From the IMG/VR virus record IMGVR_UViG_3300027784_000002, positions 1 to 41,206 of that record: a stretch of 41,206 bases of DNA. One strand, 5' to 3'. Origin of the DNA: a virus. The position numbers and the translations under genes were made by a program. The notes below the pieces were generated by a model, which saw nothing but the letters and a program-made list of their open reading frames with translations, ran no database searches and was not told where the DNA came from. Below, one piece after another: positions 1-41,206 of this stretch (the first letter of the stretch is position 1; each line of letters opens with the position of its first letter).

Positions 1-99
1 GAAGCAGGCAAAGAATACCAAAAGCACGCCACAGAGAAGTTTGCACTAGACCCAGAGTCATTTTACGCAGGAAAAATAAAAGCGTTAGAGGAATTATTA
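1..99. repeat. Terminal direct repeat copy 1 (exact match to 41108..41206); overlap of a circular or terminally redundant genome
   Basis: Read base by base: the first 99 nt (gaagcaggcaaagaatacc...gaggaattatta) are identical to the last 99 nt of the window. Confidence 0.97.
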
Positions 100-109: not shown

Positions 110-376
110 ATGAATAGAGAAATAGAAACATTAGTATCAAAATATACAAAGATTATCCATCCTCAAGACACAGGGAAAGAAACTAATGATTTAGAAAACA
201 CACTTAGAAATCTAATAGAAGAACTTATCCTACAAGAAAGAGAGAGGATAATAGGGGAGATAGAAAAAATGAGAACCGCACCACCAGAAAACGCAAAAAC
301 AGAGGTGAAAGACACATTCCAAACGATAAATAATACTATATCAGGTATTGTTATGAGAATTAAAACCCTTAAATAA
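110..376 (+). CDS. Hypothetical small coiled-coil protein (88 aa)
   Basis: ORF track. Starts 4 nt after the preceding stop. Shares a QERERIIGEIEKM segment, and about 40 nt of DNA, with the next gene. Confidence 0.6.
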   Translation: MNREIETLVSKYTKIIHPQDTGKETNDLENTLRNLIEELILQERERIIGEIEKMRTAPPENAKTEVKDTFQTINNTISGIVMRIKTLK

Positions 377-1895: not shown

Positions 1896-2147
1896 TTAAA
1901 ATGTTTTGTCTTCCTCCTCAACCCCATTTTTTAATCCCTTAATTATCTTCTCAAAAAACTCAATCACCTCTTTATTCTCCTCTTCATTTTCTCCGATAGG
2001 ATAACCCTCAATGCTATCCTTAATCATATCCATAATACCGTCCTCTCCAAGCCACTCAACTGCAAAATCAACAAACTCTTTCGTACTCAAATCTTCTCTC
2101 ACTATCTCTATCAACTCCTCTTTTAATTTGTCTATTTTATTTTCCAT
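1896..2147 (-). CDS. Highly acidic small protein (83 aa)
   Basis: ORF track. Very D/E-rich. Tightly packed in the leftward operon. Confidence 0.6.
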   Translation of the reverse strand: MENKIDKLKEELIEIVREDLSTKEFVDFAVEWLGEDGIMDMIKDSIEGYPIGENEEENKEVIEFFEKIIKGLKNGVEEEDKTF

Positions 2148-2150
2148 AAT

Positions 2151-2312
2151 TTAATAATTTAATTTAATATAAGAGACCAAACCATCTAACTCTTTTGCTA
2201 TATCTTCGCTTAATTCTTCGTGTACAACCTCCTTAAACTCTTTGTTTTTGTATTGTTCATTAAGATGTTTTCTCAACCACCATAAATGAGTAATTATTGT
2301 TTTATCGTTCAT
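2151..2312 (-). CDS. Hypothetical small protein (53 aa; below the ORF-track cutoff)
   Basis: Hand translation of the minus strand gives MNDKTIITHLWWLRKHLNEQYKNKEFKEVVHEELSEDIAKELDGLVSYIKLNY. It fills the gap between neighbours. A variant of the conserved leader motif lies upstream (2335..2350). Confidence 0.45.
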   Translation of the reverse strand: MNDKTIITHLWWLRKHLNEQYKNKEFKEVVHEELSEDIAKELDGLVSYIKLNY

Positions 2313-4572: not shown

Positions 4573-4890
4573 TCACAAAAATTTTCTTCTGTATTCTTCG
4601 TATATATTATTAGCCTCCTGTATCCAACTATCAAGGTTTGCCAGTGCTATCTCTGCTTCTGTATCTTCCCTCTCTGCGTCCCTTTCCAGAAAGTCTCTGT
4701 CTTCTTTTGCTTCCAGTATTCTATCCGGCATATCTACCTCAAAACTTGTATATTCTCCAAAATCGTGAGCGTTTTCTTTTTCCCAAACTCTTCCTCCAAT
4801 TTTCCCGAACTCCTCTTGTAAATAAAGAAGTGCTTCCTCTTGTTTTTTTATGGGAGTATCAAAAGTATCCCAAGATCCAATTTTGTTCAT
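4573..4890 (-). CDS. Acidic hypothetical protein (105 aa)
   Basis: ORF track. First gene after the promoter at 4940..4968. Confidence 0.6.
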   Translation of the reverse strand: MNKIGSWDTFDTPIKKQEEALLYLQEEFGKIGGRVWEKENAHDFGEYTSFEVDMPDRILEAKEDRDFLERDAEREDTEAEIALANLDSWIQEANNIYEEYRRKFL

Positions 4891-4939
4891 AATTTTAATA
4901 ACTTAATGCTTTAATAATACGACCTTTTTATATATTATA

Positions 4940-5716: not shown

Positions 5717-5744
5717 AATAAATATATTGATTTGTAAACGACCT

Positions 5745-5939
5745 TTATTCTCTTCCAATCTCTTTGTACCAATCCTCTAACTCTGCAATGAAGTCGCAAG
5801 TATAGTACTTCGGATAGTTCTCCACTGCTATATCCCAAAGTCTGTTGATGAAATACTTCACTTCTGTCTCATCAGGTTTGCTCTCTATCATGTCCACAAG
5901 TTCTTCCTTTGATTTGTTTAATAGTTCTCCTCGGTTCAT
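5745..5939 (-). CDS. Hypothetical small acidic protein (64 aa)
   Basis: ORF track. The leader motif at 5958..5975 lies 23 nt upstream of its ATG. Confidence 0.6.
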   Translation of the reverse strand: MNRGELLNKSKEELVDMIESKPDETEVKYFINRLWDIAVENYPKYYTCDFIAELEDWYKEIGRE

Positions 5940-5968
5940 TTTTATGTTACTTGGTTTGTAAACGACCT

Positions 5969-6139
5969 TTATCTAATACCACACTGCTCTTGTTGCCACT
6001 CAGTGTAATAGAAGTTTTCATATTGCTCTTCCATTCTCTCCCATTTATTACACTCATACTCTTCATACTTCCCGATAACAAGCAAAGACATGGCAAAGAA
6101 TAATATAGCAATGAAAGTGGTTATGATTACAACTCTCAT
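5969..6139 (-). CDS. Small membrane protein (56 aa; below the ORF-track cutoff)
   Basis: Hand translation gives MRVVIITTFIAILFFAMSLLVIGKYEEYECNKWERMEEQYENFYYTEWQQEQCGIR, with an N-terminal TM helix. First gene after the promoter at 6180..6207. Confidence 0.5.
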   Translation of the reverse strand: MRVVIITTFIAILFFAMSLLVIGKYEEYECNKWERMEEQYENFYYTEWQQEQCGIR

Positions 6140-6179
6140 GATTTATGTTGATTGATTTGTAAACGACCTTTATACTCTA

Positions 6180-6207
6180 ATTATAATCTACCACAATTAT
6201 TTGTCAA
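6180..6207 (-). promoter_or_regulatory. Sigma70-type early promoter (leftward), divergent from the late promoter
   Basis: The minus strand reads TTGACA-16 nt-TATAAT, followed by tagagTATAAAGGTCGTTTA and 24 nt to the ATG at 6139. Confidence 0.65.
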
Positions 6208-8390: not shown

Positions 8391-10371
8391 ATACAAAGAA
8401 GATGAAATAGAGGAGAGGATGGCGGCTACAGAGCAAGAGATAGTTGACCAAGTAAAGAAGGAGTATAACTACTGCCATAAATCCTTAAAGCCAAAGATAG
8501 ATGAGTGGCTTTTTCGTCTTAAAGTTTACAACAATCAAAGAAGGCAGAAGGACAAGGTGGGAGATCCTCTGCTTTTTACTATTTTTCAAACAATTCTTGC
8601 TTCGCTCTATGATGATGGGTTAAGTATAGAGTGGCTTCCTCGTGAGGAGGGGGATGTGGATAAGGCGCAGAATTTGAATACCTTGAGTGAGTTTGATAAC
8701 GAGGAGATGAAGAAGGATAGGGTGGATTATGAGTGGATATGGGATACTTTGTTTTTTGGTAGAGGTCTCATATTTTTAATGGAGTTTGATATAGAAAAAA
8801 AGATTCCCATTCCTGAGACATGGAGTCCTTTAGTAACTTTAAGGGATCCGGAGGCGGTATCAGTGAATGGTAATGCAAGCGGAAAAGGAGGTGCCAGATT
8901 TATAGGAAGGGAAACCAACCAACTAAAGTGGGAGCTTGAAAAGCATCCTGCTTACTTTAATTTGGAAAAGATTGGAAAGAGTGATCGTGAAAACCATGAC
9001 AGTTTACATGAAAAAAGTCAGTCCGCTCGTAGGGAAGCTATGGGGCGCTCTGATGCACACAAGCAAGAGGATGTAGGTGAAAATACATTTATACGCACAG
9101 TGCAATGGTTTACCTTTATTGACGGTGAGAGGTACTTTGTAGAGTTGTCGGACAACATGAGTGTTTTGATAAGGATGCAAAAATTGGAAGATCAGGATCG
9201 CTTCCCTTTAATAGACAGACCACTATTCCCCGTTGCCAATGATTGGGATGGAGTATCGGTTCCCGACTTAGTGGAGGATAAGCAAAGAGCGAGAGCGGTA
9301 TTACTTAATGCAGGATTGGATATTGCTAAGGCTGCTTCCAACCCTATGTATCTTTTCGATGTCAACGCTATAAAGCGCAGGGATCAGCTTAATTATGAGT
9401 ACAATAAATTCGTTCCCGTTGATGGAAATCCTGCTGCTGCTGTCCAGCCCATGCAGAAGGATCGCATAAGCCATGACAGTCAGTACATCTTTCAAGTATT
9501 AGATGAAGCCACACAAAGGGCGCTTGCTACACCTGAACTTCAACAAGGTGCTACGCCAAGAAGGGCGAGGACGCTTGGTGAGTTGGAGCTTATGTCAGCT
9601 AAGGTTGATACAAGATACAGTTTAGCAGCTAAGATTTTCGCATGGAGTGAGAAGGACTTTTGGATGCAATGGTACAGACTATACAACAAACACTTTGATG
9701 ATGAGATTAGTGAAAAGATAATGCGCCTAGAAGGTGCTTTCGGGCCCGAGTTCAAGAAGATCGATAAGTCGGATATAATCATGAAAGCGCATCCTGATCT
9801 AAGAGTGAAATCGAAGGCAATAGCAGATGCGGAAAAAGCTCTTAATAAGCGTACAATCCAAGAGTATGTTCAACTAGGTTCACAGATACCCGGATTCAAT
9901 GTGAGATATGCCTTAAAGGAAATGGGAAGACTTTCCGACTTTACTAAAGGGAAGATAGATCAACTAATGCCTCCCGTATACGATGAGATAGTGGCTGAAG
10001 AGGAAAACCAAATGATCAACAATGGAAAGAAACCAAGAGTGCTTTTAACTGATGATCACATGCAACACTTAGCTATGCACGCTAAGGCCAAGGAAAGCAA
10101 GTTGCGTGAAAATCATATTAAATCACACAAGGTCGCAATTCAAATTATTCATAACAATCCCGAAGTGGTCGATCCCGGCCTTATAGGCGAAGGGGCTCCT
10201 AGACCTATGGATGTTTCTGAAGGAGGAGCAAAGCAAGGAAGGCCACAGGAGAGGCCAACTGTACCCGAGGGCGCCGAGGATAGGGCACCTCATGGGCAGG
10301 GTACCGGGAGAAGTCCGTTTAACGCTCCCCAAGCATTCGAAGGTGGTATGCCAATGGGAGAACAACAATGA
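8380..10371 (+). CDS. Portal protein
   Basis: 663 aa, immediately after and overlapping terL. Size and position are typical of a portal. Pro/Gly/Gln-rich disordered C-terminal tail. Confidence 0.7.
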   Translation: MKNKYKEDEIEERMAATEQEIVDQVKKEYNYCHKSLKPKIDEWLFRLKVYNNQRRQKDKVGDPLLFTIFQTILASLYDDGLSIEWLPREEGDVDKAQNLNTLSEFDNEEMKKDRVDYEWIWDTLFFGRGLIFLMEFDIEKKIPIPETWSPLVTLRDPEAVSVNGNASGKGGARFIGRETNQLKWELEKHPAYFNLEKIGKSDRENHDSLHEKSQSARREAMGRSDAHKQEDVGENTFIRTVQWFTFIDGERYFVELSDNMSVLIRMQKLEDQDRFPLIDRPLFPVANDWDGVSVPDLVEDKQRARAVLLNAGLDIAKAASNPMYLFDVNAIKRRDQLNYEYNKFVPVDGNPAAAVQPMQKDRISHDSQYIFQVLDEATQRALATPELQQGATPRRARTLGELELMSAKVDTRYSLAAKIFAWSEKDFWMQWYRLYNKHFDDEISEKIMRLEGAFGPEFKKIDKSDIIMKAHPDLRVKSKAIADAEKALNKRTIQEYVQLGSQIPGFNVRYALKEMGRLSDFTKGKIDQLMPPVYDEIVAEEENQMINNGKKPRVLLTDDHMQHLAMHAKAKESKLRENHIKSHKVAIQIIHNNPEVVDPGLIGEGAPRPMDVSEGGAKQGRPQERPTVPEGAEDRAPHGQGTGRSPFNAPQAFEGGMPMGEQQ

Positions 10372-10760: not shown

Positions 10761-11432
10761 ATGCTAGATCCAGAAGAGACAAACCCCGAACAAGATTCAC
10801 AAGAAGGCGATCCTCAAGGTGAGCCTCAGGAACCCGAAGGACAAGATCCTCAAGGTTCCCAGAAAAAGGAATCTGAGGGAGATATTCAGGAACCTCCTGA
10901 AAGAAAATCTGAAACCGAGAAATATAAGGAGCAAGTAGAGCAGGATAAGCGACTTAAAAGGATTGAGTATCAAACAAGAAAGCTCAAAGAAGAAAACGAG
11001 AACCTTAAAAAACAACTCGGTGAGGATTATAAGTCGCCTGAATCATCCTTTACACAAGGTGAACCCCAAGGTGATCCTCAAGAAGATGATTTGAAAGTAT
11101 TCGACGAGCTGGATAAAAAAGAGCGTCAAATGGAGGTTAAGGAGTTCATTAAGGATAATCCCGAATACGAAAACCTTAAAACCACACTGGAGAAGTTCAT
11201 AGAGCACCCTGCTTATAAAAAGGTACCTGTGGACTTTATTGCCAAAGCTCTTAGTTCAGATCGTGCGGAGAAAATAGGCGCAGAAAAGGCATCCAAGGCT
11301 CAAAAGCAGTCTCAAATGTCTCAAGTAGGAGGTCACCCTGCAAAACCGCAGCAAAACCAACCCAAAGATTGGCTAAATACTACAAACGAAGAGTTTGAAA
11401 AAGAGTTAGCCAAAGTAAAAAAAGGTCAGTAG
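10761..11432 (+). CDS. Scaffolding protein (putative)
   Basis: Acidic, coiled-coil-rich, with low-complexity GDPQ/GEPQ repeats. Located between the portal and the major capsid gene. Confidence 0.55.
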   Translation: MLDPEETNPEQDSQEGDPQGEPQEPEGQDPQGSQKKESEGDIQEPPERKSETEKYKEQVEQDKRLKRIEYQTRKLKEENENLKKQLGEDYKSPESSFTQGEPQGDPQEDDLKVFDELDKKERQMEVKEFIKDNPEYENLKTTLEKFIEHPAYKKVPVDFIAKALSSDRAEKIGAEKASKAQKQSQMSQVGGHPAKPQQNQPKDWLNTTNEEFEKELAKVKKGQ

Positions 11433-14512: not shown

Positions 14513-17500
14513 ATGGCAGAACGCAACGAACCACAAGATAATAGCGAACAAAAATGGATACCTGATGCATTTGATTATTCAAATGTTGAGGATATTCTAG
14601 ATGGAACCTATCACTTGGAACTCACAGAAGAAAGTGCTGGTGTTTATAATACTTCAGGATACAGAACATCATCTCCAATATCTTTAGACAGCATTAAAAA
14701 AGTAAAGTCTAGTAATATAAAATGGACAAGCACAGAGCCAACAGATACAGACATCAAAATCTACACTGCTGTAAGTGATAGTGATACGGTAGAGCCGAGT
14801 AAATTAGGAACACACAGAATAAAGATAACTTCTGACAATACAAAAGTAGCTGCGAGTTATCCTTACGCAATGATATTTGATTTAGGAGAGCATTTATCAG
14901 CTGCTGGATATAACGACTTCTGGACAACAGTAAAATCAGATGGTGGAGATATTAGGGTTACTGAATCAGACGGCACAGAACTTCCAAGAGGAGTAAGAGA
15001 AGTAGATACTACTAATAAAAAGGGATTAGTATATTTCAGAGCAGACGATATTTCTACAAGTGCAGATACAGAATACTATATTTACTTTGGTTCAGGACAA
15101 GACGATTATGCAGACGACCACGCATTAGGAATGGAGAATGTGTTTAGTTCTGACCAAGAGTTTTATTTTACAATGGCAGACCTAACCACCTCAACGGTTA
15201 AAGATGAAACAAGTAACAACAGAAATGGAACAAAAACGTCTGCTAACAATCCTTCTCAAACATTAGATGGTATTGTAGGAAAACACCAAGAGTGGGATTA
15301 CAGCCTGATTAGTTTTTCAGGCCCCTCATTAGTCCAAGCTGATTTTACAATGTCTACTTGGTTTAAGTGGACAAGTGATGTAGTGAAGTCGTCTGAAAAC
15401 CAACCTAGCTTCTTATCACATGGTTCGGGTTCTTATACGTCTGCCTTATACTTAGATTTATTGTCAGACCGCAGACGTATAATATCAAGAATTACAAATG
15501 GTGTAACGCTTTCTTATTATGCATCGCCGTATGATGATGATACTTGGCACCATTTTGTTATGAAAAGAGATGGTAACTCTATGGTTACTTATTTAGATGG
15601 TGTTGAAGTTGATTCAGAAACAGACGAGTCTTTAGGGACTTCTTCCGCTTCGGGTTCTTGGTATATGGGCGGTCTGTCTTGGGCTTCCACTCACAGGCAA
15701 TTAGAGGGGCAATTTCAAGACGAAACAGGTGCTTTGAGTACAGCTTTAACAGGCGATGAGATTTTAACCATCTACAACAACCAATCCTCTAACTCTACTT
15801 TCTGGACAGCAGGTAGTATAGAAACAACAACAGAAGGATACCAAGAAGAAGTAAATGACACATCAATAGACAGCATATCAACAGACCAAGACCTTACAGG
15901 AAAATACCTATGGGTAAGACAAGAACTAAGCACAACTGATACAGCGGAAACTCCACGATTAAGTACGCTGGAGTATAGTGTGGAGGACGCAGCGCCAACA
16001 GTAACAACAGATAAAGATAGATACGACCCTGGAGAAACAGTCAATCTGATTACAGAAATAACAAAAGACTATAACACTGATGACTTAACCGTTACCCTAA
16101 CCGACCCAGATGCAGTTGATAGAATATCAAGTGAAAGACCACAAGAGTACAGAGATGACTTTATAAGCGAAACAAGCACTGGCGATGATTGGGATTTAGG
16201 AACTGACTATAGTGTAAATGAGACAAACGAAAGATTGGAGTTTGGATACTCTCCGGCCTATCATCAAACCGCTCTCATAAAATCAACAGTAGTAAGCGAT
16301 AAAGCGGAACTATCAGCCGCCTTAGATTTTTATGTAGCAGAAGCTCCAGAGCATACCACAAGGATTATAATGCGTTATCAGGATAGCAATAACTATGTAG
16401 CATTTTACGCTTCTCACACTTATTCAGTTGTCGGAATTGAAGAAATACACGAGGGAACAAGACATTTTCACGAAACATCACGACCATTTTCAACTGGAGG
16501 ATGGAATGAGTTTAGAGGATCAATTGATGGCAATACCGCTAAATTGGTGTTTGATGGAAGTGAACTTTTAGAATATGAGCTTCAATATATAATGACAGCA
16601 GGAAGAGTGGGAATAATGACTGATGCAAGTGAAACCTATTACAGATTCTTTACAGTAGGATATCCCGGAAGCACAATCGAAGATATTGGAGATATGTGGA
16701 GGATAACAATGCCCTTTGACATTCCTGACGATAAGGATGAAGGAGGAGTATGGACAATGGAATCTGAAATTAGCGGAGTAGGAAGTGATACGCATACATT
16801 CAATGTAGTTGGAGATGCTCCTATTGTTACCAACCTTTCTACAACTCCCGAAGAAGGGGAGGCAGGAAAGGATATAGATATAGAATGTGAGGTTCTTCAC
16901 GATACTCCAACAGATATTGATGAGACAAAACTCACTCTTTGGGACCCGACAGGTGCCGAAGTTCTTCATCAAGTTGTAACTCACGAAACTGAAACCACGA
17001 ATAGCAGAACTTATAAGTATACTTATAGCATTCCCGAAGAATTAGACAGGGAAGGAACTTGGGAATATAAGTGGGAAAGTATCGATACTGGTGCAGACCA
17101 AGATGAAAAGAGTGGAACTTTTGAAGTAAGCGTACCTGCTCCGGATGTGTCTCCAATAGAGTTTGAAAGAGCTGGCTCACCAATAAAGATAGCTGACTTC
17201 GGAGATGTAGTTAAAATCAAATCAACCATAACCCATCCTGAAAATAAGGATATGACGGTTACTCTCAAGATTTGGGATCCAGAACAGAACGAGATAGTGA
17301 ATGAAACTCTTACAAGTGAAACTGATAATTACGAATATAACTATACTTTCTCAAAGAATGATTGGGATAGAGGGGATTATGAGGTACAGATTTCAGCCGA
17401 TGATTTAACTTATAATGTAATAAGGCTTAAACATATTTTCCTTAGATGGATGGATGCCGAGTTTGAATACAGGAGAGACTTTTACACAGTAGACCAATTT

Positions 17501-19964: not shown

Positions 19965-20759
19965 ATGGAGTATATTATCCCAAAAGCAAACAATCTAACA
20001 TTTGAGCTAGAGGAATACATGGTTCCTACTGGTGACAGTTTGCTTTTTGATCTTACTCCGGAAATTCTCATAGAGGCAGTAGAAAGTCTCAATTTTACAG
20101 AAAAAGTATCCGTAACTAGACACAGGAAAATAGCAGTATCTGAAAACCTTTCGCTCTCAGAAAAGCTGAATATAATTATACATCACGCTGTCGTTGGTAT
20201 AGATAGTATATCTTTTAGTGACGAAGTTTCTGCTACAAGGCAAAGAATAGCTCAAGTTAAGGATAGCTTGGATTTATCAGAAAAAGTTAAGGCACTAAGA
20301 CAACGTATATCAAAGGTTTCTGATTCTATTGGACTAACTGATTTAGTTTCCACTACAAAGTATATTATTGCAAAGGTTTCCGACTCAATAGGATTTAGTG
20401 ATACTATTCAAGCTCTAAGACAAAGAAAGGCTTCTGTCTCTGACTCATTTTCTTTATCAGATTTTACAAAGAGTATAAGGTCTAGAGTGGCAAAGGCAAA
20501 AGAATTACTATCACTTAAAGAAGGTGTAGCTTTTGCATCAATTGTTATATTTGCAATAGTTAAAGATACAATACAATTCAGTGAAAGAGTTTCAACTTTA
20601 AGACAACGCATAGCGAAAATTAAAGAGAGACTTAACTTAAAAGAGAGTGCGTTTGCTCGCTTTCTTGGATGGAGACAAGATAAACAAGACGATGCTGAAT
20701 GGAGACAAGATAAACAAGATGATGCTGAGTGGAATAAAACTAATCAAAAAGATTTATGA
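19965..20759 (+). CDS. Repeat-containing tail protein (264 aa; about 10 tandem 20-aa units)
   Basis: Units such as AQVKDSLDLSEKVKALRQRI, SKVSDSIGLTDLVSTTKYII and AKVSDSIGFSDTIQALRQRK. Starts 1 nt after the stop of the giant fibre gene. Confidence 0.7.
   Translation: MEYIIPKANNLTFELEEYMVPTGDSLLFDLTPEILIEAVESLNFTEKVSVTRHRKIAVSENLSLSEKLNIIIHHAVVGIDSISFSDEVSATRQRIAQVKDSLDLSEKVKALRQRISKVSDSIGLTDLVSTTKYIIAKVSDSIGFSDTIQALRQRKASVSDSFSLSDFTKSIRSRVAKAKELLSLKEGVAFASIVIFAIVKDTIQFSERVSTLRQRIAKIKERLNLKESAFARFLGWRQDKQDDAEWRQDKQDDAEWNKTNQKDL
20670..20729 (+). repeat. Tandem 30-nt duplication (2 mismatches) encoding WRQDKQDDAE twice
   Basis: tggagacaagataaacaagacgatgctgaa is followed directly by tggagacaagataaacaagatgatgctgag. 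Confidence 0.9.
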
Positions 20760-33377: not shown

Positions 33378-33833
33378 ATGCAAAAACTCATAGCGTCACT
33401 TATCATAGGAATTGCCATTTCTGGGGGATATGTCGCAGGTATAGACAAAACCTTTGGAGAAGTTGAATTTGAGCGACAAGAAAGCGAATTATTTAACGAG
33501 CAGGGGTTCCTGAAAGCACCAATTATGGTTACTTATCAGGAGTCTCAGGTATTGGGAACTAAGACAGATAATTACTATCACTTACTTACAGGAAAGACTT
33601 GGAACGCAGATTTGATGTATCGCATTATGAAGTGCGAAAGTTCACTAAACCCAAGAGCGCACAACCCGGAGTGGCACAGGGGGTGTCAGGGAAGCTATGG
33701 ACTTTTTCAGGTAGCTTGTGTTCACGGATATAGTAATCTTTATGATCCGGAATCAAATATAGAAGCAGCATACAGAGTTTGGCAGAAGCAAGGATACTGG
33801 GCGTGGAAGAATTGTTATTTAAGCAATAAATGA
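33378..33833 (+). CDS. SLT-domain lytic transglycosylase with N-terminal signal-anchor (SAR-endolysin-like)
   Basis: The CESSLNPRAHN ... GSYGLFQV ... AAYRVW pattern matches the GH23/SLT motifs ES..nP.A and GLMQ. The N-terminus LIASLIIGIAISGGYVAGI is a Gly/Ala/Ser-rich TM segment. Confidence 0.65.
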   Translation: MQKLIASLIIGIAISGGYVAGIDKTFGEVEFERQESELFNEQGFLKAPIMVTYQESQVLGTKTDNYYHLLTGKTWNADLMYRIMKCESSLNPRAHNPEWHRGCQGSYGLFQVACVHGYSNLYDPESNIEAAYRVWQKQGYWAWKNCYLSNK

Positions 33834-33921
33834 TTTGACACGATTTTTCTCTTATGTATAATTAGAAAAAGTATTAAAAACATGAGGATACACAGACGTA
33901 TAATATCTTTATTTAATTCAG

Positions 33922-33949
33922 AAACCACCTGACTTCGGGTGGTTTTTTG
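33922..33949 (+). terminator. Rho-independent terminator after the lysis cassette
   Basis: aaaccacc-tgacttcg-ggtggttt followed by a T run. Confidence 0.75.
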
Positions 33950-33961
33950 TTTGCCTGCTTC

Positions 33962-33997
33962 TGTGCGGGGGTTTTTTGCAAAATTTTCCCCTGCACA
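33962..33997. promoter_or_regulatory. GC-rich inverted repeat (TGTGCGGGG ... CCCCtGCACA) with an AT palindromic loop, at the left edge of the SD cassette
   Basis: Read directly. A 9-bp stem with one bulge and a 17-nt loop (gttttttgcaaaatttt). No T run follows. Confidence 0.5.
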
Positions 33998-34040
33998 AAA
34001 GGAGGGAAAGCACACTAAACAACGAAAGGAGGTGATGTAA

Positions 34041-34169
34041 ATGTATTGTCATGCAAGGTGTATCCATTGTGGCAAAGATGGTTTTCACAGGATCATTGAT
34101 TCAGGTATGAATCGTCTTGTGGTTCTTTGCAAGCACTGCGGACTTGTTTTCCGTATAATCCTTAAGTAG
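34041..34169 (+). CDS. Zinc-ribbon protein (42 aa; below the ORF-track cutoff)
   Basis: Hand translation gives MYCHARCIHCGKDGFHRIIDSGMNRLVVLCKHCGLVFRIILK. A strong SD (AAGGAGGTGA) ends 8 nt upstream of the ATG. Confidence 0.6.
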   Translation: MYCHARCIHCGKDGFHRIIDSGMNRLVVLCKHCGLVFRIILK

Positions 34170-34179
34170 GAGGTATGCT

Positions 34180-34377
34180 ATGTGGTATTCAGGAGGAGAC
34201 AAGCTGAGCCCTGAACAAGAGTTTATCTTCAAGGTTCAAATGCTTGCCGAAAAGTACGATACCGAGGTGGAAATTGACCAGAAAAATAAGACGGTCAACT
34301 TCCTTGCCAAAGATGAAGCAACTCAAATTGCTCTCGCAAAAGAGCTTGAGGACCTTTTTTCTGACAATCTGGTCTAG
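34180..34377 (+). CDS. Acidic hypothetical protein (65 aa)
   Basis: ORF track. SD GGAGG lies 6 nt upstream. Confidence 0.65.
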   Translation: MWYSGGDKLSPEQEFIFKVQMLAEKYDTEVEIDQKNKTVNFLAKDEATQIALAKELEDLFSDNLV

Positions 34378-34388
34378 GGGGTGATGTC

Positions 34389-34679
34389 ATGAATGAGTTC
34401 GAGGTTTTCTTGTTTGATAGTGAATGGGACTTTGAGTTCTGTTGGACTTCCAAGAAGACCTACGGAACAATAAACCCCAGAAAGTCTCTGGTAAAGATTA
34501 ACATTCGGCTTATGCTGATTGAGACACTTTACCACGAATACTATCACACGAAGTATCCCAGTTTTGACGAATCGGCTATTGAGAGAATGGCTCAAACCAA
34601 GGTTCAATCCTTATCGGTTTCTGAAATCATAAGGATTACCGACAAGTTTGTCGCATACTGGGGAAAGGGGGGTGAATGA
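34389..34679 (+). CDS. Minimal HExxH metallopeptidase-like protein (96 aa; SprT/DUF45-like)
   Basis: LYHEYYH contains an HExxH motif. It is preceded by W.S..YG.I......VKINIRL, as in SprT/WLM/DUF45 zincins. SD GGGGGTGA upstream. Confidence 0.55.
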   Translation: MNEFEVFLFDSEWDFEFCWTSKKTYGTINPRKSLVKINIRLMLIETLYHEYYHTKYPSFDESAIERMAQTKVQSLSVSEIIRITDKFVAYWGKGGE

Positions 34680-34960
34680 ATTACTCTCGACACCATGTAA
34701 CACCTCGTTCTCGGATACGTAAGTCCAAGAACACAGTCTTGTTGCCAGAGAAGTTCCATGATAGTTGGCACTACCTCTTTGGTGACCTAACGCCAATCGA
34801 AACAATCTTCTTCTTAAAGGAACTGAATGCCCGAATGCACAAGAAGAGAATTATCACAAAGGGCGAAATTCAGGAACTAAGGGAAGGGATAAAGGAGGGA
34901 CGAAATGAAACAGAACCTCAGAAAAGGACGAAAGGTAAACATCAACCGACACGATCTTAA
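34676..34960 (+). CDS. HNH/His-Me finger-like small protein (94 aa)
   Basis: SRHHVTPRSR...KNTVLLPEKFHDSWHYLFGDLTP resembles small phage HNH proteins (HH..P.s..N..LLP..H..WH.LFG). ATGA overlap with the upstream gene; SD AAGGGGGG. Confidence 0.55.
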   Translation: MNYSRHHVTPRSRIRKSKNTVLLPEKFHDSWHYLFGDLTPIETIFFLKELNARMHKKRIITKGEIQELREGIKEGRNETEPQKRTKGKHQPTRS

Positions 34961-35693
34961 ACCCCGAAAGGACAGGTATCACGCAGACATCGTTCTCTTC
35001 GGAGATACGCATCTCGGACACCCCAACTTCCTTCGGGAAAAAGCACAGGATTTGCTTAACTACTGCCTCAGAACTAGGACTTACATGGTCTGCATGGGCG
35101 ACATGATTGAGAGTGGCATTACTGGCTCTGTTGGAGATAGTATCTATACCCAGACCCTTAATCCACAAGCACAGATGGAAGAAATGATTGATATGCTTAT
35201 GCCATTGGCGAAAGCTGGACTTCTTCTCGGATTGCACGCGGGTAACCATGAGATGCGTATCTTCAAAACATCTGGCATCAATGTCGCCAAGAACATGGCT
35301 GGTTGGCTCGGAGTACCGTTCCTGCACAGTGCTTGCTGGCATCTGTTTCGTGTAAATGGACACAACTACACAATGTATTCATTACATGGTGCTAGTGGTT
35401 CAAAGTTTATCTACACGAAGATTAAGGCGGCTACCGATATCAGCCACTACTTCGGAGCAGATATTATTGCTCACGCACACGTTCACGATAGGGCATCGGT
35501 TGCCATTGAAAGACAGGAAATCGATATGAGAAACAAGCAAGTTGCCTACCGCAAACAGTATATCCTTCTTACTGGTCATTATCTTGGGTACGATTTAAGT
35601 TATGCTCAAGACAAGGGTATGCCACCATCAAAGGTTGGTAGTCCTCGGATTCGGTTGTATGCCAATGATTGGGATATACATATTCGTGAATAG
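34905..35693 (+). CDS. Calcineurin-like metallophosphoesterase (262 aa)
   Basis: The full motif set is in order: LFGDTHLG, CMGDMIESG, AGNHE, LHGASG, AHAHVHD. SD AAGGAGG lies 6 nt upstream. Confidence 0.8.
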   Translation: MKQNLRKGRKVNINRHDLKPRKDRYHADIVLFGDTHLGHPNFLREKAQDLLNYCLRTRTYMVCMGDMIESGITGSVGDSIYTQTLNPQAQMEEMIDMLMPLAKAGLLLGLHAGNHEMRIFKTSGINVAKNMAGWLGVPFLHSACWHLFRVNGHNYTMYSLHGASGSKFIYTKIKAATDISHYFGADIIAHAHVHDRASVAIERQEIDMRNKQVAYRKQYILLTGHYLGYDLSYAQDKGMPPSKVGSPRIRLYANDWDIHIRE

Positions 35694-35701
35694 GGGGAGC
35701 T

Positions 35702-35800
35702 ATGAAACACTTCATAATTTATGTCTCCCTTATGGCCCTGGGTTATGGACTTAAACTACTTCTATGGATTGCCGAAAGAAGGGAGGAAGATGAAGACTAA
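35702..35800 (+). CDS. Small single-TM peptide (32 aa; below the ORF-track cutoff)
   Basis: Hand translation gives MKHFIIYVSLMALGYGLKLLLWIAERREEDED. SD GGGGGAG lies just upstream. Confidence 0.45.
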   Translation: MKHFIIYVSLMALGYGLKLLLWIAERREEDED

Positions 35801-35975
35801 TAGATACAAGTTCACTGACTGGGAGCTGATACACAACAGGTGCGATGAGTGTGGTGGCAAGGTCTACGCAAAACGGATAATGTCCAGAGACCACCTTATC
35901 AAGTGCGATGGTTGTGAAAGGTCAATGCTCATAAAGGAACCTCATGATACATTTACCACTGACTATGTTATTTAG
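35790..35975 (+). CDS. Zinc-ribbon protein (61 aa)
   Basis: ORF track 35721..35975, trimmed to the ATG preceded by SD AAGGGAGG. Contains CDECGG...CDGC. Confidence 0.55.
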   Translation: MKTNRYKFTDWELIHNRCDECGGKVYAKRIMSRDHLIKCDGCERSMLIKEPHDTFTTDYVI

Positions 35976-35984
35976 AAAGGGCCC

Positions 35985-36011
35985 GCCACCTTGCCCAAAA
36001 AGGTGGCTTTT
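35985..36011 (+). terminator. Rho-independent terminator closing the SD cassette
   Basis: gccacctt-gcccaaa-aaggtggc followed by ttttc. Confidence 0.7.
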
Positions 36012-36019
36012 CATATCAC

Positions 36020-36047
36020 TTGACACTATTTTCACACATGATATAAT
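36020..36047 (+). promoter_or_regulatory. Consensus sigma70 promoter with extended -10
   Basis: TTGACA (36020..36025), 16 nt ending in TGa, TATAAT (36042..36047). A 23-nt leader runs to the ATG at 36071. Confidence 0.7.
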
Positions 36048-40925: not shown

Positions 40926-41206
40926 ATTGGATAAATAGATACAAAAAGAAACTAGGGCAAGACACAGAAGTAAGAGAATTTTCAAAATGGCTATGGGAAG
41001 AAGACCGCCAGAACTGGGAAATAGAAAGATATACAGAGGATATAGTAAGAGAAGAGTACGAAAGAGGATACAGAGATTATGCAATGCGTTGCAAAGAAGC
41101 ACTAGAAGAAGCAGGCAAAGAATACCAAAAGCACGCCACAGAGAAGTTTGCACTAGACCCAGAGTCATTTTACGCAGGAAAAATAAAAGCGTTAGAGGAA
41201 TTATTA
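40922..41206 (+). CDS. 5' part of junction-spanning hypothetical protein (96 aa once circularised; continues at 100..105)
   Basis: An ATG at 40922 overlaps the upstream TGA. The frame stays open to the window end: MNWINRYKKKLGQDTEVREFSKWLWEEDRQNWEIERYTEDIVREEYERGYRDYAMRCKEALEEAGKEYQK.... The codon phase matches frame 1 at the left end. Confidence 0.65.
   Translation, partial: MNWINRYKKKLGQDTEVREFSKWLWEEDRQNWEIERYTEDIVREEYERGYRDYAMRCKEALEEAGKEYQKHATEKFALDPESFYAGKIKALEELL
41108..41206. repeat. Terminal direct repeat copy 2 (exact match to 1..99)
   Basis: Same 99-nt string as 1..99; the identity is bounded by the window edges. Confidence 0.97.

What the first reader, a model, noticed from the sequence alone, without database searches (positions are those of the whole stretch)
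33922..36011. Terminator-bounded seven-gene cassette with strong Shine-Dalgarno sites in an otherwise SD-less genome
All seven tightly packed ORFs between the terminators at 33922..33949 and 35985..36011 have a purine-rich SD 3-8 nt before the ATG:
- AAGGAGGTGA before 34041
- GGAGG before 34180
- GGGGGTGA before 34389
- AAGGGGGG before 34676
- AAGGAGG before 34905
- GGGGGAG before 35702
- AAGGGAGG before 35790

Nearly every other start codon in the window follows an A/T-only leader with no GGAGG. The cassette also looks more GC-rich by eye and uses different codons.

It encodes two Zn ribbons, an acidic 65-aa protein and a minimal HExxH (SprT/DUF45-like) protein. It also encodes an HNH-like protein, a complete calcineurin-type metallophosphoesterase and a 32-aa TM peptide.

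It occupies the classical moron position, between the lysis genes and the early promoters. It has no recognisable promoter of its own, only a GC-rich palindrome upstream.

Inference: this is a horizontally acquired accessory module. Possible roles are counter-defence, exclusion, or hydrolysis of signalling nucleotides or phosphoproteins. I do not recognise this gene combination as a described system.
Basis: partly seen in the sequence, partly recalled or inferred. Interest (0 to 1): 0.8.

Follow-up and report, generated by a model that had tools for sequence, protein, structure and literature searches.

The report
Shine-Dalgarno-led nuclease moron in phage
A small self-contained accessory operon in an uncultivated phage, built around a putative nuclease pair, is the only part of the genome that uses classical ribosome-binding sites, and this oddity is kept in distant relatives, so it looks selected rather than a leftover of recent gene transfer.

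Summary
All seven ORFs between the terminators at 33921-33949 and 35985-36011 have strong Shine-Dalgarno (SD) sites (-9.3 to -15.9 kcal/mol). Only 1 of 41 backbone genes reaches -8 (median -0.4). Cassette GC3 is 0.475 against 0.329.

It lies upstream of the first terminator, so the layout is promoter, leader, terminator, genes, terminator.

The unit behaves as a moron-type accessory module:
- One relative (L058) has an empty site between lysin and early genes.
- A near-identical copy (L086) loses homology exactly at the right-hand terminator.

The SD signature is not simply a foreign relic. Two distant relatives (L057, L056) have SD-less backbones and carry SD-led cassettes at the same site. 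The shared core is a small HNH-type protein plus a metallophosphoesterase (MPE). The MPE family occurs mostly in low-GC, SD-poor phage contigs and is enriched for strong SDs.

The MPE has all catalytic motifs and most resembles Mre11 and the PolD small subunit in fold. Its function is untested. My best guess is an early-expressed nuclease module. The host is unknown.

Verdict: new variant of a known kind, interest 0.6.

The parts
33835..33862 (+). Sigma-70 consensus promoter of the cassette (TTGACA-16-TATAAT, 12/12), starting 2 nt after the SLT lysin stop codon
   Evidence: It belongs to the same class as the early promoters at 36020 and 36327 and the minus-strand promoters at 6207 and 3884. 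L057 has TTGACA-17-TAGTAT at the equivalent place.
33869..33920 (+). Leader RNA with a 5' hairpin (33882-33912). It holds a 16-codon ORF (33882-33932) with an SD-less A-rich leader, whose UGA stop lies in the apex of the terminator.
   Evidence: Analogous short ORFs ending in the terminator loop occur in L057 (8992-9042) and L056 (12213-12278). Function is inferred only.
33921..33949 (+). Strong intrinsic terminator T1, between the promoter and the genes. It also ends the late (lysis) operon and is a presumed attenuator.
   Evidence: (-15.4 kcal/mol, followed by a T-run). L057 has the same arrangement (9031-9056).
33950..34009 (+). It pairs a pyrimidine stretch with a pseudo-SD (AAAGGAGGG) that is not followed by a start codon.
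   Evidence: The whole leader folds with z = -4.5 against shuffles.
34041..34169 (+). g1: 42-aa zinc ribbon (two CxxC pairs), pI 9.3. SD is AAAGGAGGTGAT, -15.9 kcal/mol.
   Evidence: Only weak Pfam hits; the best is Zn_ribbon_SprT at E = 0.0034, below cutoff.
34180..34377 (+). g2: 65-aa acidic protein (14 D+E against 7 K+R, pI 4.3). SD is GGAGG, -11.6 kcal/mol.
   Evidence: No family match.
34389..34679 (+). g3: 96-aa mini-zincin-like protein with HExxH plus a downstream Glu. SD is GGGGGTGA, -13.6 kcal/mol.
   Evidence: The family has 91 representatives, with H49, E50, H53 and E61 invariant. AF2 pLDDT is 95.6. PDB fold matches are weak only (IrrE/PprI, minigluzincins; E >= 0.075). SprT-like Pfam hits are weak, in 3 of 36 members.
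34676..34960 (+). g4: 94-aa HNH_5-type nuclease-like protein (H6, H7, N19, H28, H32; no Cys zinc site). ATGA overlap with g3. SD is -14.7 kcal/mol.
   Evidence: Homologues sit next to MPE genes in L057, L056, L019, L020/22, L009/10, L039, L077, L066/87 and L068. Six of 10 family members hit Pfam HNH_5 (best 1.9e-9); g4 itself has no hit.
34905..35693 (+). g5: 262-aa calcineurin-like metallophosphoesterase with all catalytic motifs. SD is AAGGAGG, -12.1 kcal/mol.
   Evidence: PHROG 7339 at 1.1e-29. Invariant D34, H36, G65-D66, G113-N114-H115, H161, H192, H194. AF2 pLDDT 90. Best PDB folds are Mre11, PolD DP1 and YydB, TM 0.45-0.6. Viral MPEs of unknown function reach TM up to 0.8. 9 synonymous to 1 non-synonymous change against L086.
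35702..35800 (+). g6: 32-aa putative transmembrane peptide. SD is GGGGGAG, -9.3 kcal/mol.
   Evidence: Present in L086, with no informative substitutions there. Coding status is unproven.
35790..35975 (+). g7: 61-aa zinc ribbon (CxxC...CxxC). SD is AAGGGAGG, -11.3 kcal/mol.
   Evidence: 97% identical in L086. L057 ends its cassette with a comparable Zn ribbon (11163-11312).
35985..36011 (+). Terminator T2, the right boundary of the module and a mosaic recombination junction
   Evidence: Homology with L086 ends at about 36010.

Best explanation
The cassette is an autonomous, moron-type accessory transcription unit of a complete 41.1-kb uncultivated tailed phage. No integrase was recognised, so the phage is probably virulent. 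The unit sits between the lysis genes and the early region.

Shown:
- It has its own consensus sigma-70 promoter of the same class as the phage's early promoters.
- The leader contains a strong intrinsic terminator, and a second terminator closes the unit.
- All seven genes have extended SD sequences complementary to the canonical 16S 3' tail. The rest of the genome uses A/T-rich, SD-less leaders.
- The unit is present or absent between homologous flanks in relatives.
- Its conserved core is a small HNH_5-type protein plus an MPE with an intact active site.
- SD-led initiation is retained with this gene set in distantly related SD-poor phages.

Inferred:
- The host ribosome can use SD pairing, and selection keeps it for these genes. 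The cassette therefore runs on a different translation-initiation regime from the backbone.
- Transcription into the genes requires read-through of T1. This may work by attenuation coupled to translation of the 16-codon leader ORF that stops inside the terminator.
- The products act as a DNA-directed nuclease module early in infection. The MPE would be an Mre11/PolD-DP1-like nuclease with the HNH partner, and the Zn ribbons would act as nucleic-acid binders. The mini-zincin and the acidic protein would act as accessory or inhibitory factors. The target would be host or competitor DNA.
- This is functionally analogous to the T5 pre-early metallophosphatase A1, not homologous to it.
For: SD and composition contrast.

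Promoter and terminators.

Conserved site, architecture and SD status in relatives:
- L057: promoter, terminator, then SD-led HNH-like, Zn ribbon, MPE, Zn ribbon, then terminator.
- L056: leader and terminator, then SD-led HNH-like and C2H2-MPE, then terminator.

Empty site and mosaic junction: L058 and L086.

L093 has a single SD-led MPE between terminators, after amidase and holin, in an SD-less context.

Family-level SD enrichment:
- MPE: 18-32 of 64, against a background of 11-16%. Fisher p = 1.3e-4 to 1.3e-9.
- HNH-like: 5 of 7.
- Terminase and other recurrent backbone-type families: 0.

SD-led genes have higher GC3 than SD-less genes in 23 of 29 SD-poor loci (p = 4e-5).

MPE motifs and fold.

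HNH membership of the g4 family.

Precedent: T5 A1 is a putative metallophosphatase that is necessary and sufficient for host DNA degradation. It is described as resembling DSB-repair and polymerase-proofreading nucleases (bioRxiv 10.64898/2026.04.02.716235). It lies in the T5 pre-early region, which also encodes the HNH endonuclease HegG.
Against: - No expression or activity data exist. The host is unknown, so 'SD-less host' is inferred from phage backbones only.
- T1 is a strong terminator, and nothing shows that it is read through. The promoter-T1 unit could simply make an RNA of about 80 nt.
- PDB fold matches of the MPE are modest (TM 0.45-0.6). The superfamily also contains nucleotide phosphodiesterases and protein phosphatases.
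- No Rad50/SbcC partner gene is present.
- No similarity to T5 A1 was found (hhalign probability 0.7%).
- The HNH partner is absent from most MPE loci. Only 28-50% of MPE genes carry a strong SD.
- g4 lacks the Cys zinc site and has no Pfam hit of its own.
- The leader-ORF pattern (three of three relatives) is statistically weak.
Confidence: 0.55

Rival explanations
1. Recent horizontal import: the cassette came recently from a phage or genome of an SD-using host (for example Bacillota). Its SDs, higher GC3 and different codon usage would be un-ameliorated foreign signals with no function of their own.
For: - GC3 is 0.475 against 0.329, and codon preferences differ.
- There is a mosaic junction at T2, and one relative has an empty site.
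- The only cultured-phage homologues of the MPE are in phages of SD-using hosts (Bacillus, Brevibacillus, Moorella, Marinitoga). They are distant, at 22-32% identity.
Against: - L057 and L056 share 41-51% backbone identity with the window and carry SD-led cassettes at the same site in SD-less backbones.
- The MPE of L057 is 49% identical to g5, about as diverged as the backbone, which fits long co-residence.
- Homologues at 40-73% identity all lie in SD-poor, low-GC contigs and often keep extended SDs.
- Neutral SDs would have decayed at these distances.
- No close homologue was found in an SD-rich context.
Confidence: 0.15
2. Counter-defence phosphoesterase: g5 hydrolyses immune signalling nucleotides (cyclic mono-, di- or oligonucleotides) or dephosphorylates proteins, and the small proteins are unrelated passengers.
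For: - The calcineurin-like superfamily includes cyclic-nucleotide phosphodiesterases and protein phosphatases.
- GpdQ and PP1 appear among the lower-ranked fold hits.
- BFVD labels the best viral matches as 'ApaH type' phosphoesterases.
- The promoter is of the early class.
Against: - The top structural matches are nucleases (Mre11, PolD DP1).
- The recurrent partner is an HNH-type protein, and the neighbours are Zn ribbons, which points to nucleic-acid substrates.
- There is no match to PADLOC models. That library covers defence systems, not anti-defence proteins, so this is weak evidence.
Confidence: 0.15
3. Core replication/recombination/repair module (SbcCD/Mre11-Rad50 type) with no accessory behaviour.
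For: - PHROG 7339 is annotated 'DNA repair exonuclease'.
- The MPE has an Mre11-like fold.
- The neighbouring early region has recombination genes: a Gp157-like protein and a weak, below-cutoff PD-(D/E)XK nuclease hit.
Against: - There is no Rad50/SbcC ATPase gene in the cassette, and none was recognised among the window proteins scanned.
- The MPE is a bare 262-aa core with no room for a separate capping domain.
- The cassette is missing from L058, and its content varies among relatives.
- In other phages the MPE often sits just after the lysis genes as a terminator-flanked single gene.
Confidence: 0.07
4. The promoter-T1 unit is a small-RNA gene, and the downstream ORFs are expressed only by read-through of late transcription. 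The cassette would then be the tail end of the late operon, not an independent unit.
For: - T1 is strong and lies only about 55-80 nt from the transcription start.
- There is no terminator between the lysin and the promoter.
- In the empty-site relative L058 a terminator directly follows the lysin.
Against: - No Rfam family matches, and no meaningful complementarity to other phage transcripts was found.
- The leader sequence is not conserved between the window and L057, although the arrangement is.
- L093 has its promoter downstream of the terminator.
- Late read-through would also have to pass T1.
Confidence: 0.08

Closest known systems
Morons of tailed phages (Juhala/Hendrix concept; from my own knowledge of the literature)
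   Same: - Extra DNA lies between genes that are adjacent in a relative.
- It has its own promoter and terminator.
- Its nucleotide composition is distinct.
- The site is at the end of the late operon.
   Different: - It holds seven genes rather than one or two.
- The promoter is upstream of a strong terminator, an attenuator-like layout.
- The phage appears non-temperate, so expression from a prophage is not the rationale.
- The unit also differs from the backbone in its translation-initiation signals. That difference is conserved across diverged relatives, which is not part of the moron concept.
Phage T5 pre-early metallophosphatase A1, with the HNH endonuclease HegG in the same pre-early region
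   Same: - A phage MPE described as resembling DSB-repair and polymerase-proofreading nucleases. g5's best fold hits are Mre11 and PolD DP1.
- It is driven by host-type promoters at the start of infection.
- An HNH gene lies in the same region.
   Different: - There is no detectable sequence or profile similarity.
- A1 is 556 aa and g5 is 262 aa.
- The DNase role is shown genetically for A1 only. Nothing has been tested for g5.
Mre11/SbcD nucleases
   Same: MPE core with all metal-binding motifs, and the best PDB structural matches.
   Different: - TM scores are only 0.45-0.5.
- A 262-aa core leaves no room for a separate capping domain.
- There is no Rad50/SbcC partner.
- There is no PDB sequence match.
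rpsU/bS21 autoregulation in SD-less Bacteroidia (McNutt et al. 2023, PMC9976891)
   Same: Rare, exceptionally strong SDs (below -13 kcal/mol) occur in a setting that is otherwise depleted of SDs. There, they mark mRNAs read by a specialised ribosome sub-population. Three of the seven cassette SDs are at or below -13.6.
   Different: - The host is unknown.
- The phage's promoters are canonical TTGACA/TATAAT, not the Bacteroidia type, so the host is probably not Bacteroidia.
- No phage bS21 gene was found among the small ORFs scanned.
- This is a resemblance of pattern only.
Minimal zincins / SprT-like proteases (for g3 with g1)
   Same: - HExxH plus a downstream Glu, invariant in 36 aligned homologues.
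- The weak best hits are to SprT-like, IrrE/PprI and minigluzincins.
- g1's best weak hit is the SprT zinc ribbon.
   Different: No hit reaches significance, so the family is effectively undescribed. A split-SprT reading is speculation.

Membership tests
Moron (accessory transcription unit in tailed phages) | Present or absent between genes that are adjacent in related phages | tested here: met
   L058 runs lysin, terminator, early promoter, SSB/Rad52-like genes, with no cassette. L086 has cassette genes g5-g7 plus the right-hand terminator upstream of homologous SSB (63%) and Rad52-like (74%) genes. The window lysin is homologous to the L058 lysin.
Moron (accessory transcription unit in tailed phages) | Own promoter and own terminator | tested here: met
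   A 12/12 sigma-70 consensus at 33835-33862 and a terminator at 35985-36007. This is sequence evidence only; activity was not measured. There is an additional terminator between the promoter and the genes.
Moron (accessory transcription unit in tailed phages) | Nucleotide composition distinct from the surrounding genome | tested here: met
   GC3 is 0.475 against 0.329, and codon use is shifted. The head-gene region is similarly GC-rich.
Moron (accessory transcription unit in tailed phages) | Expressed independently of the flanking operons and dispensable for lytic growth | not testable with these tools
   Needs transcriptomics and genetics in a cultured host.
Calcineurin-like metallophosphoesterase (PF00149) | Motifs DxH, GDxx(D/E), GNH(D/E), H, GHxH-type | tested here: met
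   D34, H36, G65-D66 (E69), G113-N114-H115, H161, H192 and H194 are invariant in 32 homologues. The AF2 model shows the beta-sandwich MPE core.
Calcineurin-like metallophosphoesterase (PF00149) | Score above the Pfam gathering threshold | tested here: inconclusive
   g5 scores 18.2 bits against a cutoff of 21.5. Homologues in L057 (27.0) and L056 (25.4) pass. PHROG 7339 matches at 1.1e-29.
Mre11/SbcD nuclease | Adjacent Rad50/SbcC-type ATPase partner | tested here: not met
   No such gene is in the cassette, nor among the called genes next to the MPE in the loci looked up.
Mre11/SbcD nuclease | Nuclease capping domain C-terminal to the MPE core | tested here: not met
   The 262-aa protein is a single compact domain. 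Alignment to Mre11 covers only the core, TMq 0.46-0.51.
HNH endonuclease (PF14279 / PF01844), for g4 | beta-beta-alpha-Me catalytic residues (His ... Asn ... His) | tested here: met
   H6, H7, H28 and H32 are invariant in 10 homologues, and N19 is present in g4. Six of 10 homologues hit HNH_5 (best 1.9e-9) and 5 of 10 hit HNH. g4 itself has no Pfam hit.
HNH endonuclease (PF14279 / PF01844), for g4 | Cys4-type structural zinc site flanking the motif | tested here: not met
   g4 and its L057 and L056 homologues have no Cys pairs. L020 and L066 keep them.
SprT-like / zincin metalloprotease, for g3 | HExxH zinc-binding motif with a third ligand | tested here: met
   H49, E50, H53 and E61 are invariant in 36 sequences.
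SprT-like / zincin metalloprotease, for g3 | Significant sequence or fold match to a described zincin family | tested here: inconclusive
   SprT-like hits occur in only 3 of 36 members, best E = 0.0026. The best Foldseek hit is PprI/IrrE at E = 0.075, TM 0.29.
T5 A1-type host-DNA-degrading metallophosphatase | Homology to A1 | tested here: not met
   hhalign of the MPE profile against T5 A1 gives probability 0.7%. tblastn of g5 against 50,697 phage records returns no T5-like phage.
Specialised SD-dependent translation in an SD-averse lineage (Bacteroidia rpsU type) | Host genome-wide depletion of SDs with a sequestered anti-SD | not testable with these tools
   The host is not identified. The scan of genome collections found no prophage relative. 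Only the phage backbones show SD depletion.
Specialised SD-dependent translation in an SD-averse lineage (Bacteroidia rpsU type) | Bacteroidia-type host (promoters of the TAnnTTTG class; from my own knowledge) | tested here: not met
   The phage uses at least five perfect TTGACA/TATAAT promoters.

The most novel reading that the evidence does not exclude
These phages may run two translation-initiation regimes in one genome. The backbone would use SD-independent, A/U-rich leaders, as expected for an SD-averse host. A mobile set of accessory genes (the MPE, its HNH partner and their neighbours) would be kept on extended SDs. Those genes would then be read only, or preferentially, by a distinct ribosome state. 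That state could be ribosomes with an exposed anti-SD, as with bS21-lacking ribosomes in Flavobacteria, or ribosomes altered during infection or stress. SD islands would then be a translational timing or dosage switch for potentially toxic nucleases. The leader ORF and terminator would couple transcription of the cassette to the SD-independent regime.
Probability: 0.15. Interest if true: 0.85.

Novelty: new variant of a known kind. Interest (0 to 1): 0.6.

Why it matters
**Translation biology.** If the SD contrast is functional, phage genomes from SD-poor lineages hold a natural, heritable marker of a second translation regime. That would give a handle on how ribosomes in such lineages treat SD-led mRNAs. 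So far this is shown only for rpsU in Flavobacteria.

**Annotation.** It also shows that 'foreign-looking' translation signals need not mean recent transfer.

**Gene families.** The work defines three things:
- a widespread, uncharacterised phage MPE family (PHROG 7339) that often sits as a terminator-flanked unit after the lysis genes;
- a recurrent small HNH-type partner of that MPE;
- an undescribed family of about 95-aa HExxH proteins.

These are candidates for host-takeover or inter-phage conflict nucleases.

**Limits.** The host is unknown and nothing has been expressed, so the functional claims remain inference.

Tried and rejected
**Close relatives**
- No DNA similarity to 50,697 GenBank phages.
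- Single-protein scans of IMG/VR found nothing close.

**Host identification failed**
- The run accession is not in the literature library.
- Two related IMG/VR contigs come from Ace Lake metagenomes, but those papers give no virus-host links.
- One near-identical JGI contig is named SL_3KL_010_SED. My reading of it as a soda-lake sediment sample rests on the name only.
- No tRNAs in the window.

**Other searches**
- No Rfam family in the window or in L056-L058.
- The word-index homology search for g4 returned only g4 itself. Its relatives had to be found with an HMM built from the loci.
- No PDB sequence match for the MPE profile or for g3.
- PADLOC and NCBIfam gave nothing for any cassette protein.
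- No bS21 or other ribosomal protein among ten small phage ORFs.
- No antisense target for the leader RNA.

**Readings rejected**
- Assembly chimera: the same junctions occur in an independent Logan contig (L001), and the same architecture occurs in L057 from another sample.
- Bacteroidia host: the promoter type does not fit.
- Seeing g1 plus g3 as a split SprT is kept only as an idea.

Full report
**1. What the window is**

The first and last 99 bases are identical. The window is therefore a circularly closed assembly of 41,107 bp.

It encodes terminase small and large subunits, a portal, a major capsid protein and large tail proteins (PHROGs). A protease-like 369-aa protein with an SH3 domain, a small holin-like protein and an SLT lysin (33378-33833) follow. 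Early and recombination genes include a Gp157-like protein and a NinG-like protein, plus a weak, below-cutoff PD-(D/E)XK nuclease hit. No integrase was recognised.

There is no nucleotide similarity to any GenBank phage. The capsid protein is at most 40% identical to those of human-faecal 'Bacteriophage sp.' records and Bacillus megaterium phages.

The same sequence occurs in a Logan assembly of SRR490134 (L001). A 95.7%-identical fragment occurs in a JGI contig named SL_3KL_010_SED (L086).

The genome carries at least five perfect TTGACA-N16/17-TATAAT promoters. The host RNA polymerase is therefore of the canonical sigma-70 type.

**2.

- All seven SD strings are present at the stated places.
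- Duplex energies with the 16S 3' tail are -9.3 to -15.9 kcal/mol for the seven cassette starts.
- The median for 41 backbone genes is -0.4. Only one reaches -8 or below, and its SD-like stretch has an implausible spacing (Mann-Whitney p = 1.5e-5).
- Only 3.6% of random 20-mers of this genome reach -9.3.
- Backbone starts follow A/T-only leaders, often close to ATTAAGTTATTAAAATT-ATG.
- Cassette GC3 is 0.475 against 0.329, with GC1 and GC2 equal. AGA, ATA, TTA and AAA are avoided.
- The packaging and head region is about as GC-rich as the cassette.
- Both terminators are strong hairpins with T-runs.

**3.

A 12/12 consensus promoter (33835-33862) starts two bases after the lysin stop codon. It lies upstream of terminator T1 (33921-33949).

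The predicted leader contains, in order:
- a 5' hairpin;
- a 16-codon ORF with a backbone-type SD-less leader, whose UGA stop sits in the apex of T1;
- T1 itself;
It pairs a pyrimidine tract with a pseudo-SD that has no start codon after it.

The layout is promoter, leader, terminator, seven SD-led genes, terminator T2 (35985-36011), then the early promoters.

**4. Relatives**

The 369-aa protein upstream of the cassette gave backbone relatives.

*L057 (41% identity)*
- It has the same order: giant tail protein, 97-aa protein, 366-aa protein, holin, SLT lysin.
- Then come TTGACA-17-TAGTAT, a short leader, a strong terminator, and SD-led genes. These are HNH-like, Zn ribbon, 72 aa, HAD-like, 61 aa, MPE (49% identical to g5) and Zn ribbon. 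A terminator closes the unit.
- Its backbone starts have no SD.

*L056 (51% identity)*
- After the lysin it has a structured leader of about 310 nt ending in a terminator.
- Three SD-led genes follow: a 52-aa protein, an HNH-like protein, and a C2H2-finger-MPE fusion of another subfamily. Then come a terminator and a TTGACA.

*L058 (52% identity)*
- It has lysin, terminator, early promoter, then SSB and Rad52-like genes, with no cassette and no SD-led gene.

*L086*
- It carries g5-g6-g7 and T2 almost unchanged. g5 shows 9 synonymous changes to 1 non-synonymous change.
- Homology to the window ends at about 36010. The early region that follows is homologous to that of L058, with SSB at 63% and the Rad52-like protein at 74%.

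The cassette is therefore an exchangeable module with a junction at its terminator. It is present or absent between homologous flanks. Where a cassette is present, it is SD-led in an SD-less backbone.

**5. The gene set elsewhere**

*The MPE family*
- The MPE has 54 homologues at E <= 1e-3.
- About 80 further loci were fetched from IMG/VR and JGI metagenomes. Nearly all are low-GC (0.28-0.45) and SD-poor, with a median start energy near -1.
- In many of them the MPE and its immediate neighbours form SD islands. Examples are L005, L007, L009, L011, L026, L030 and L033.
- L093 has a single MPE gene with TAGGAGGTG, flanked by terminators. It sits right after amidase and holin, among SD-less genes.

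*SD status after clustering all ORFs*

| Family | Strong SD | Comparison |
|---|---|---|
| MPE (64 non-redundant) | 18 (longest-ORF start) to 32 (any start in the first 30 codons) | other genes 10.6% / 16.2%; Fisher p = 1.3e-4 / 1.3e-9 |
| HNH-like | 5-6 of 7 | Fisher p = 2.5e-4 |
| Terminase and other recurrent backbone-type families | 0 | one M23-peptidase family has 1 of 9 |

*Other associations*
- In 29 SD-poor loci, SD-led genes have higher GC3 than SD-less genes in 23 (mean +0.06, p = 4e-5).
- HNH-like genes lie within about 1.5 kb of the MPE in the window, L057, L056, L019, L020/22, L009/10, L039, L077, L066/87 and L068.
- A g3 homologue plus a weak HNH-like hit precede the MPE in L027/28.

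**6. The proteins**

*g5 (MPE)*
- All MPE metal-binding motifs are invariant.
- It matches PHROG 7339 'DNA repair exonuclease' at 1e-29.
- The AF2 model is confident (pLDDT 90).
- Best PDB matches are Mre11, the PolD small subunit and YydB, at TM 0.45-0.6.
- Uncharacterised phage MPEs match at TM up to 0.8.
- There is no PDB sequence match.

*g4 (HNH-like)*
- It belongs to a family in which 6 of 10 members hit Pfam HNH_5. The catalytic histidines are invariant. g4 lacks the Cys zinc site.

*g3 (mini-zincin-like)*
- Its family has 91 representatives of about 95 aa, with invariant HExxH plus Glu.
- The AF2 model is very confident (pLDDT 95.6). Its only fold matches are weak, to IrrE/PprI and minigluzincins.

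*Others*
- g1 and g7 are Zn ribbons, g2 is acidic (pI 4.3), and g6 is a possible TM peptide.
- Nothing matches PADLOC or NCBIfam.

**7. Interpretation**

*Shown*
- The cassette is an autonomous, exchangeable accessory unit with its own transcription signals.
- Its translation-initiation signals differ from the rest of the genome.
- This difference travels with the gene set across phages diverged to 40-50% protein identity.
- Neutral SDs would not survive that divergence. SD pairing is therefore most likely functional and selected in the unknown host.

*Inferred*
- Expression needs read-through of T1. Leader ORFs end in the terminator loop in all three relatives, which suggests translation-coupled attenuation. 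The statistics for this are weak.
- The most likely biochemical role is a DNA nuclease module made early in infection. The T5 pre-early metallophosphatase A1 is a functional precedent. It is necessary and sufficient for host DNA degradation and is described as resembling DSB-repair and proofreading nucleases. It lies in the pre-early region that also encodes the HNH endonuclease HegG.
- There is no homology between g5 and A1.
- Nucleotide or phosphoprotein hydrolysis cannot be excluded.

**8. The SD contrast in context**

In Bacteroidia, SDs are depleted genome-wide. Exceptionally strong SDs (below -13 kcal/mol) are essentially confined to rpsU, whose mRNA is read by ribosomes lacking bS21 (PMC9976891).

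The pattern here is similar: rare, extended SDs in an SD-poor setting. However, the phage's canonical promoters argue against a Bacteroidia host, and no phage bS21 was found among the small ORFs scanned.

Which lineage the host belongs to could not be determined. A monoderm, low-GC, SD-poor lineage from anoxic sediments is my guess only. That guess rests on the lysis module having no recognisable spanin and on the sample types.

**9. Verdict**

It is a new variant of a known kind: a moron-type unit carrying an MPE/HNH nuclease-like core. Its unusual and conserved property is that it uses a different translation-initiation mode from its genome.

Interest is 0.6. The conserved contrast in translation signals is unusual, but the host is unknown and nothing has been tested functionally.

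Noticed in passing
window 1-99 and 41108-41206: An identical 99-nt terminal direct repeat. The window is a circularly closed assembly with a true length of 41,107 bp.
   Followed up: yes
window 2138-2163, 2629-2654, 4882-4907 (minus-strand gene starts): A conserved SD-less initiation leader, ATTAAGTTATTAAAATT-ATG, is repeated before several minus-strand early genes. It could be a shared translational operator or simply the preferred SD-independent initiation region.
   Followed up: no
window 5717-5748, 5941-5972, 6142-6173: Three copies of TTGnTTTGTAAACGACCTTTAT lie in the divergent control region between the minus-strand block and terS, next to perfect promoters at 6207(-) and 6266(+). They are candidate operator sites.
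   Followed up: no
window 34000-34008 within hairpin 33950-34009: A pseudo-SD (AAAGGAGGG) with no start codon after it is base-paired to a pyrimidine tract (CCUGCUUCU) in the cassette leader. It may be a decoy, a standby site or a regulatory element.
   Followed up: partly
window 33890-33904 and 15472-15486: A 15-nt exact identity (CAGACGTATAATATC) links the cassette leader and the interior of the 1816-aa gene. It is unexpected by chance, and its meaning is unknown.
   Followed up: no
window 110-376 and 415-837; window 20666-20725: Two adjacent early genes share repeated segments, suggesting paralogous duplication. A separate 30-nt tandem duplicate lies inside gene 19965-20759.
   Followed up: no
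L056 12746-13711: In this relative the cassette's MPE belongs to a different subfamily and carries an N-terminal C2H2 zinc finger fused to it. This echoes the separate Zn-ribbon genes of the window and L057.
   Followed up: partly
L010 and L018 (IMGVR_UViG_3300033145_002224, 101 kb): One large viral contig carries two MPE paralogues about 34 kb apart (61% and 50% identical to g5). One of them has an HNH-like gene just downstream.
   Followed up: no
L013 8220-8585 and eight homologues in other loci: A second protein family (about 121 aa, begins MGNKKLVYIAYPY...) is SD-led in 4 of 9 members within SD-poor phage contigs. It may belong to the same SD-island gene pool.
   Followed up: no
L002 12978-15089: An 87.5-kb phage-like contig carries an MPE homologue directly after an M23 peptidase. 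It also encodes an RtcB RNA ligase interrupted by an intein, close to a radical-SAM gene.
   Followed up: no
L057 9825-10121: The L057 cassette holds a small HAD-like protein with weak similarity to the PNKP phosphatase domain (E = 0.098). This would fit nucleic-acid end processing, but the match is not significant.
   Followed up: no
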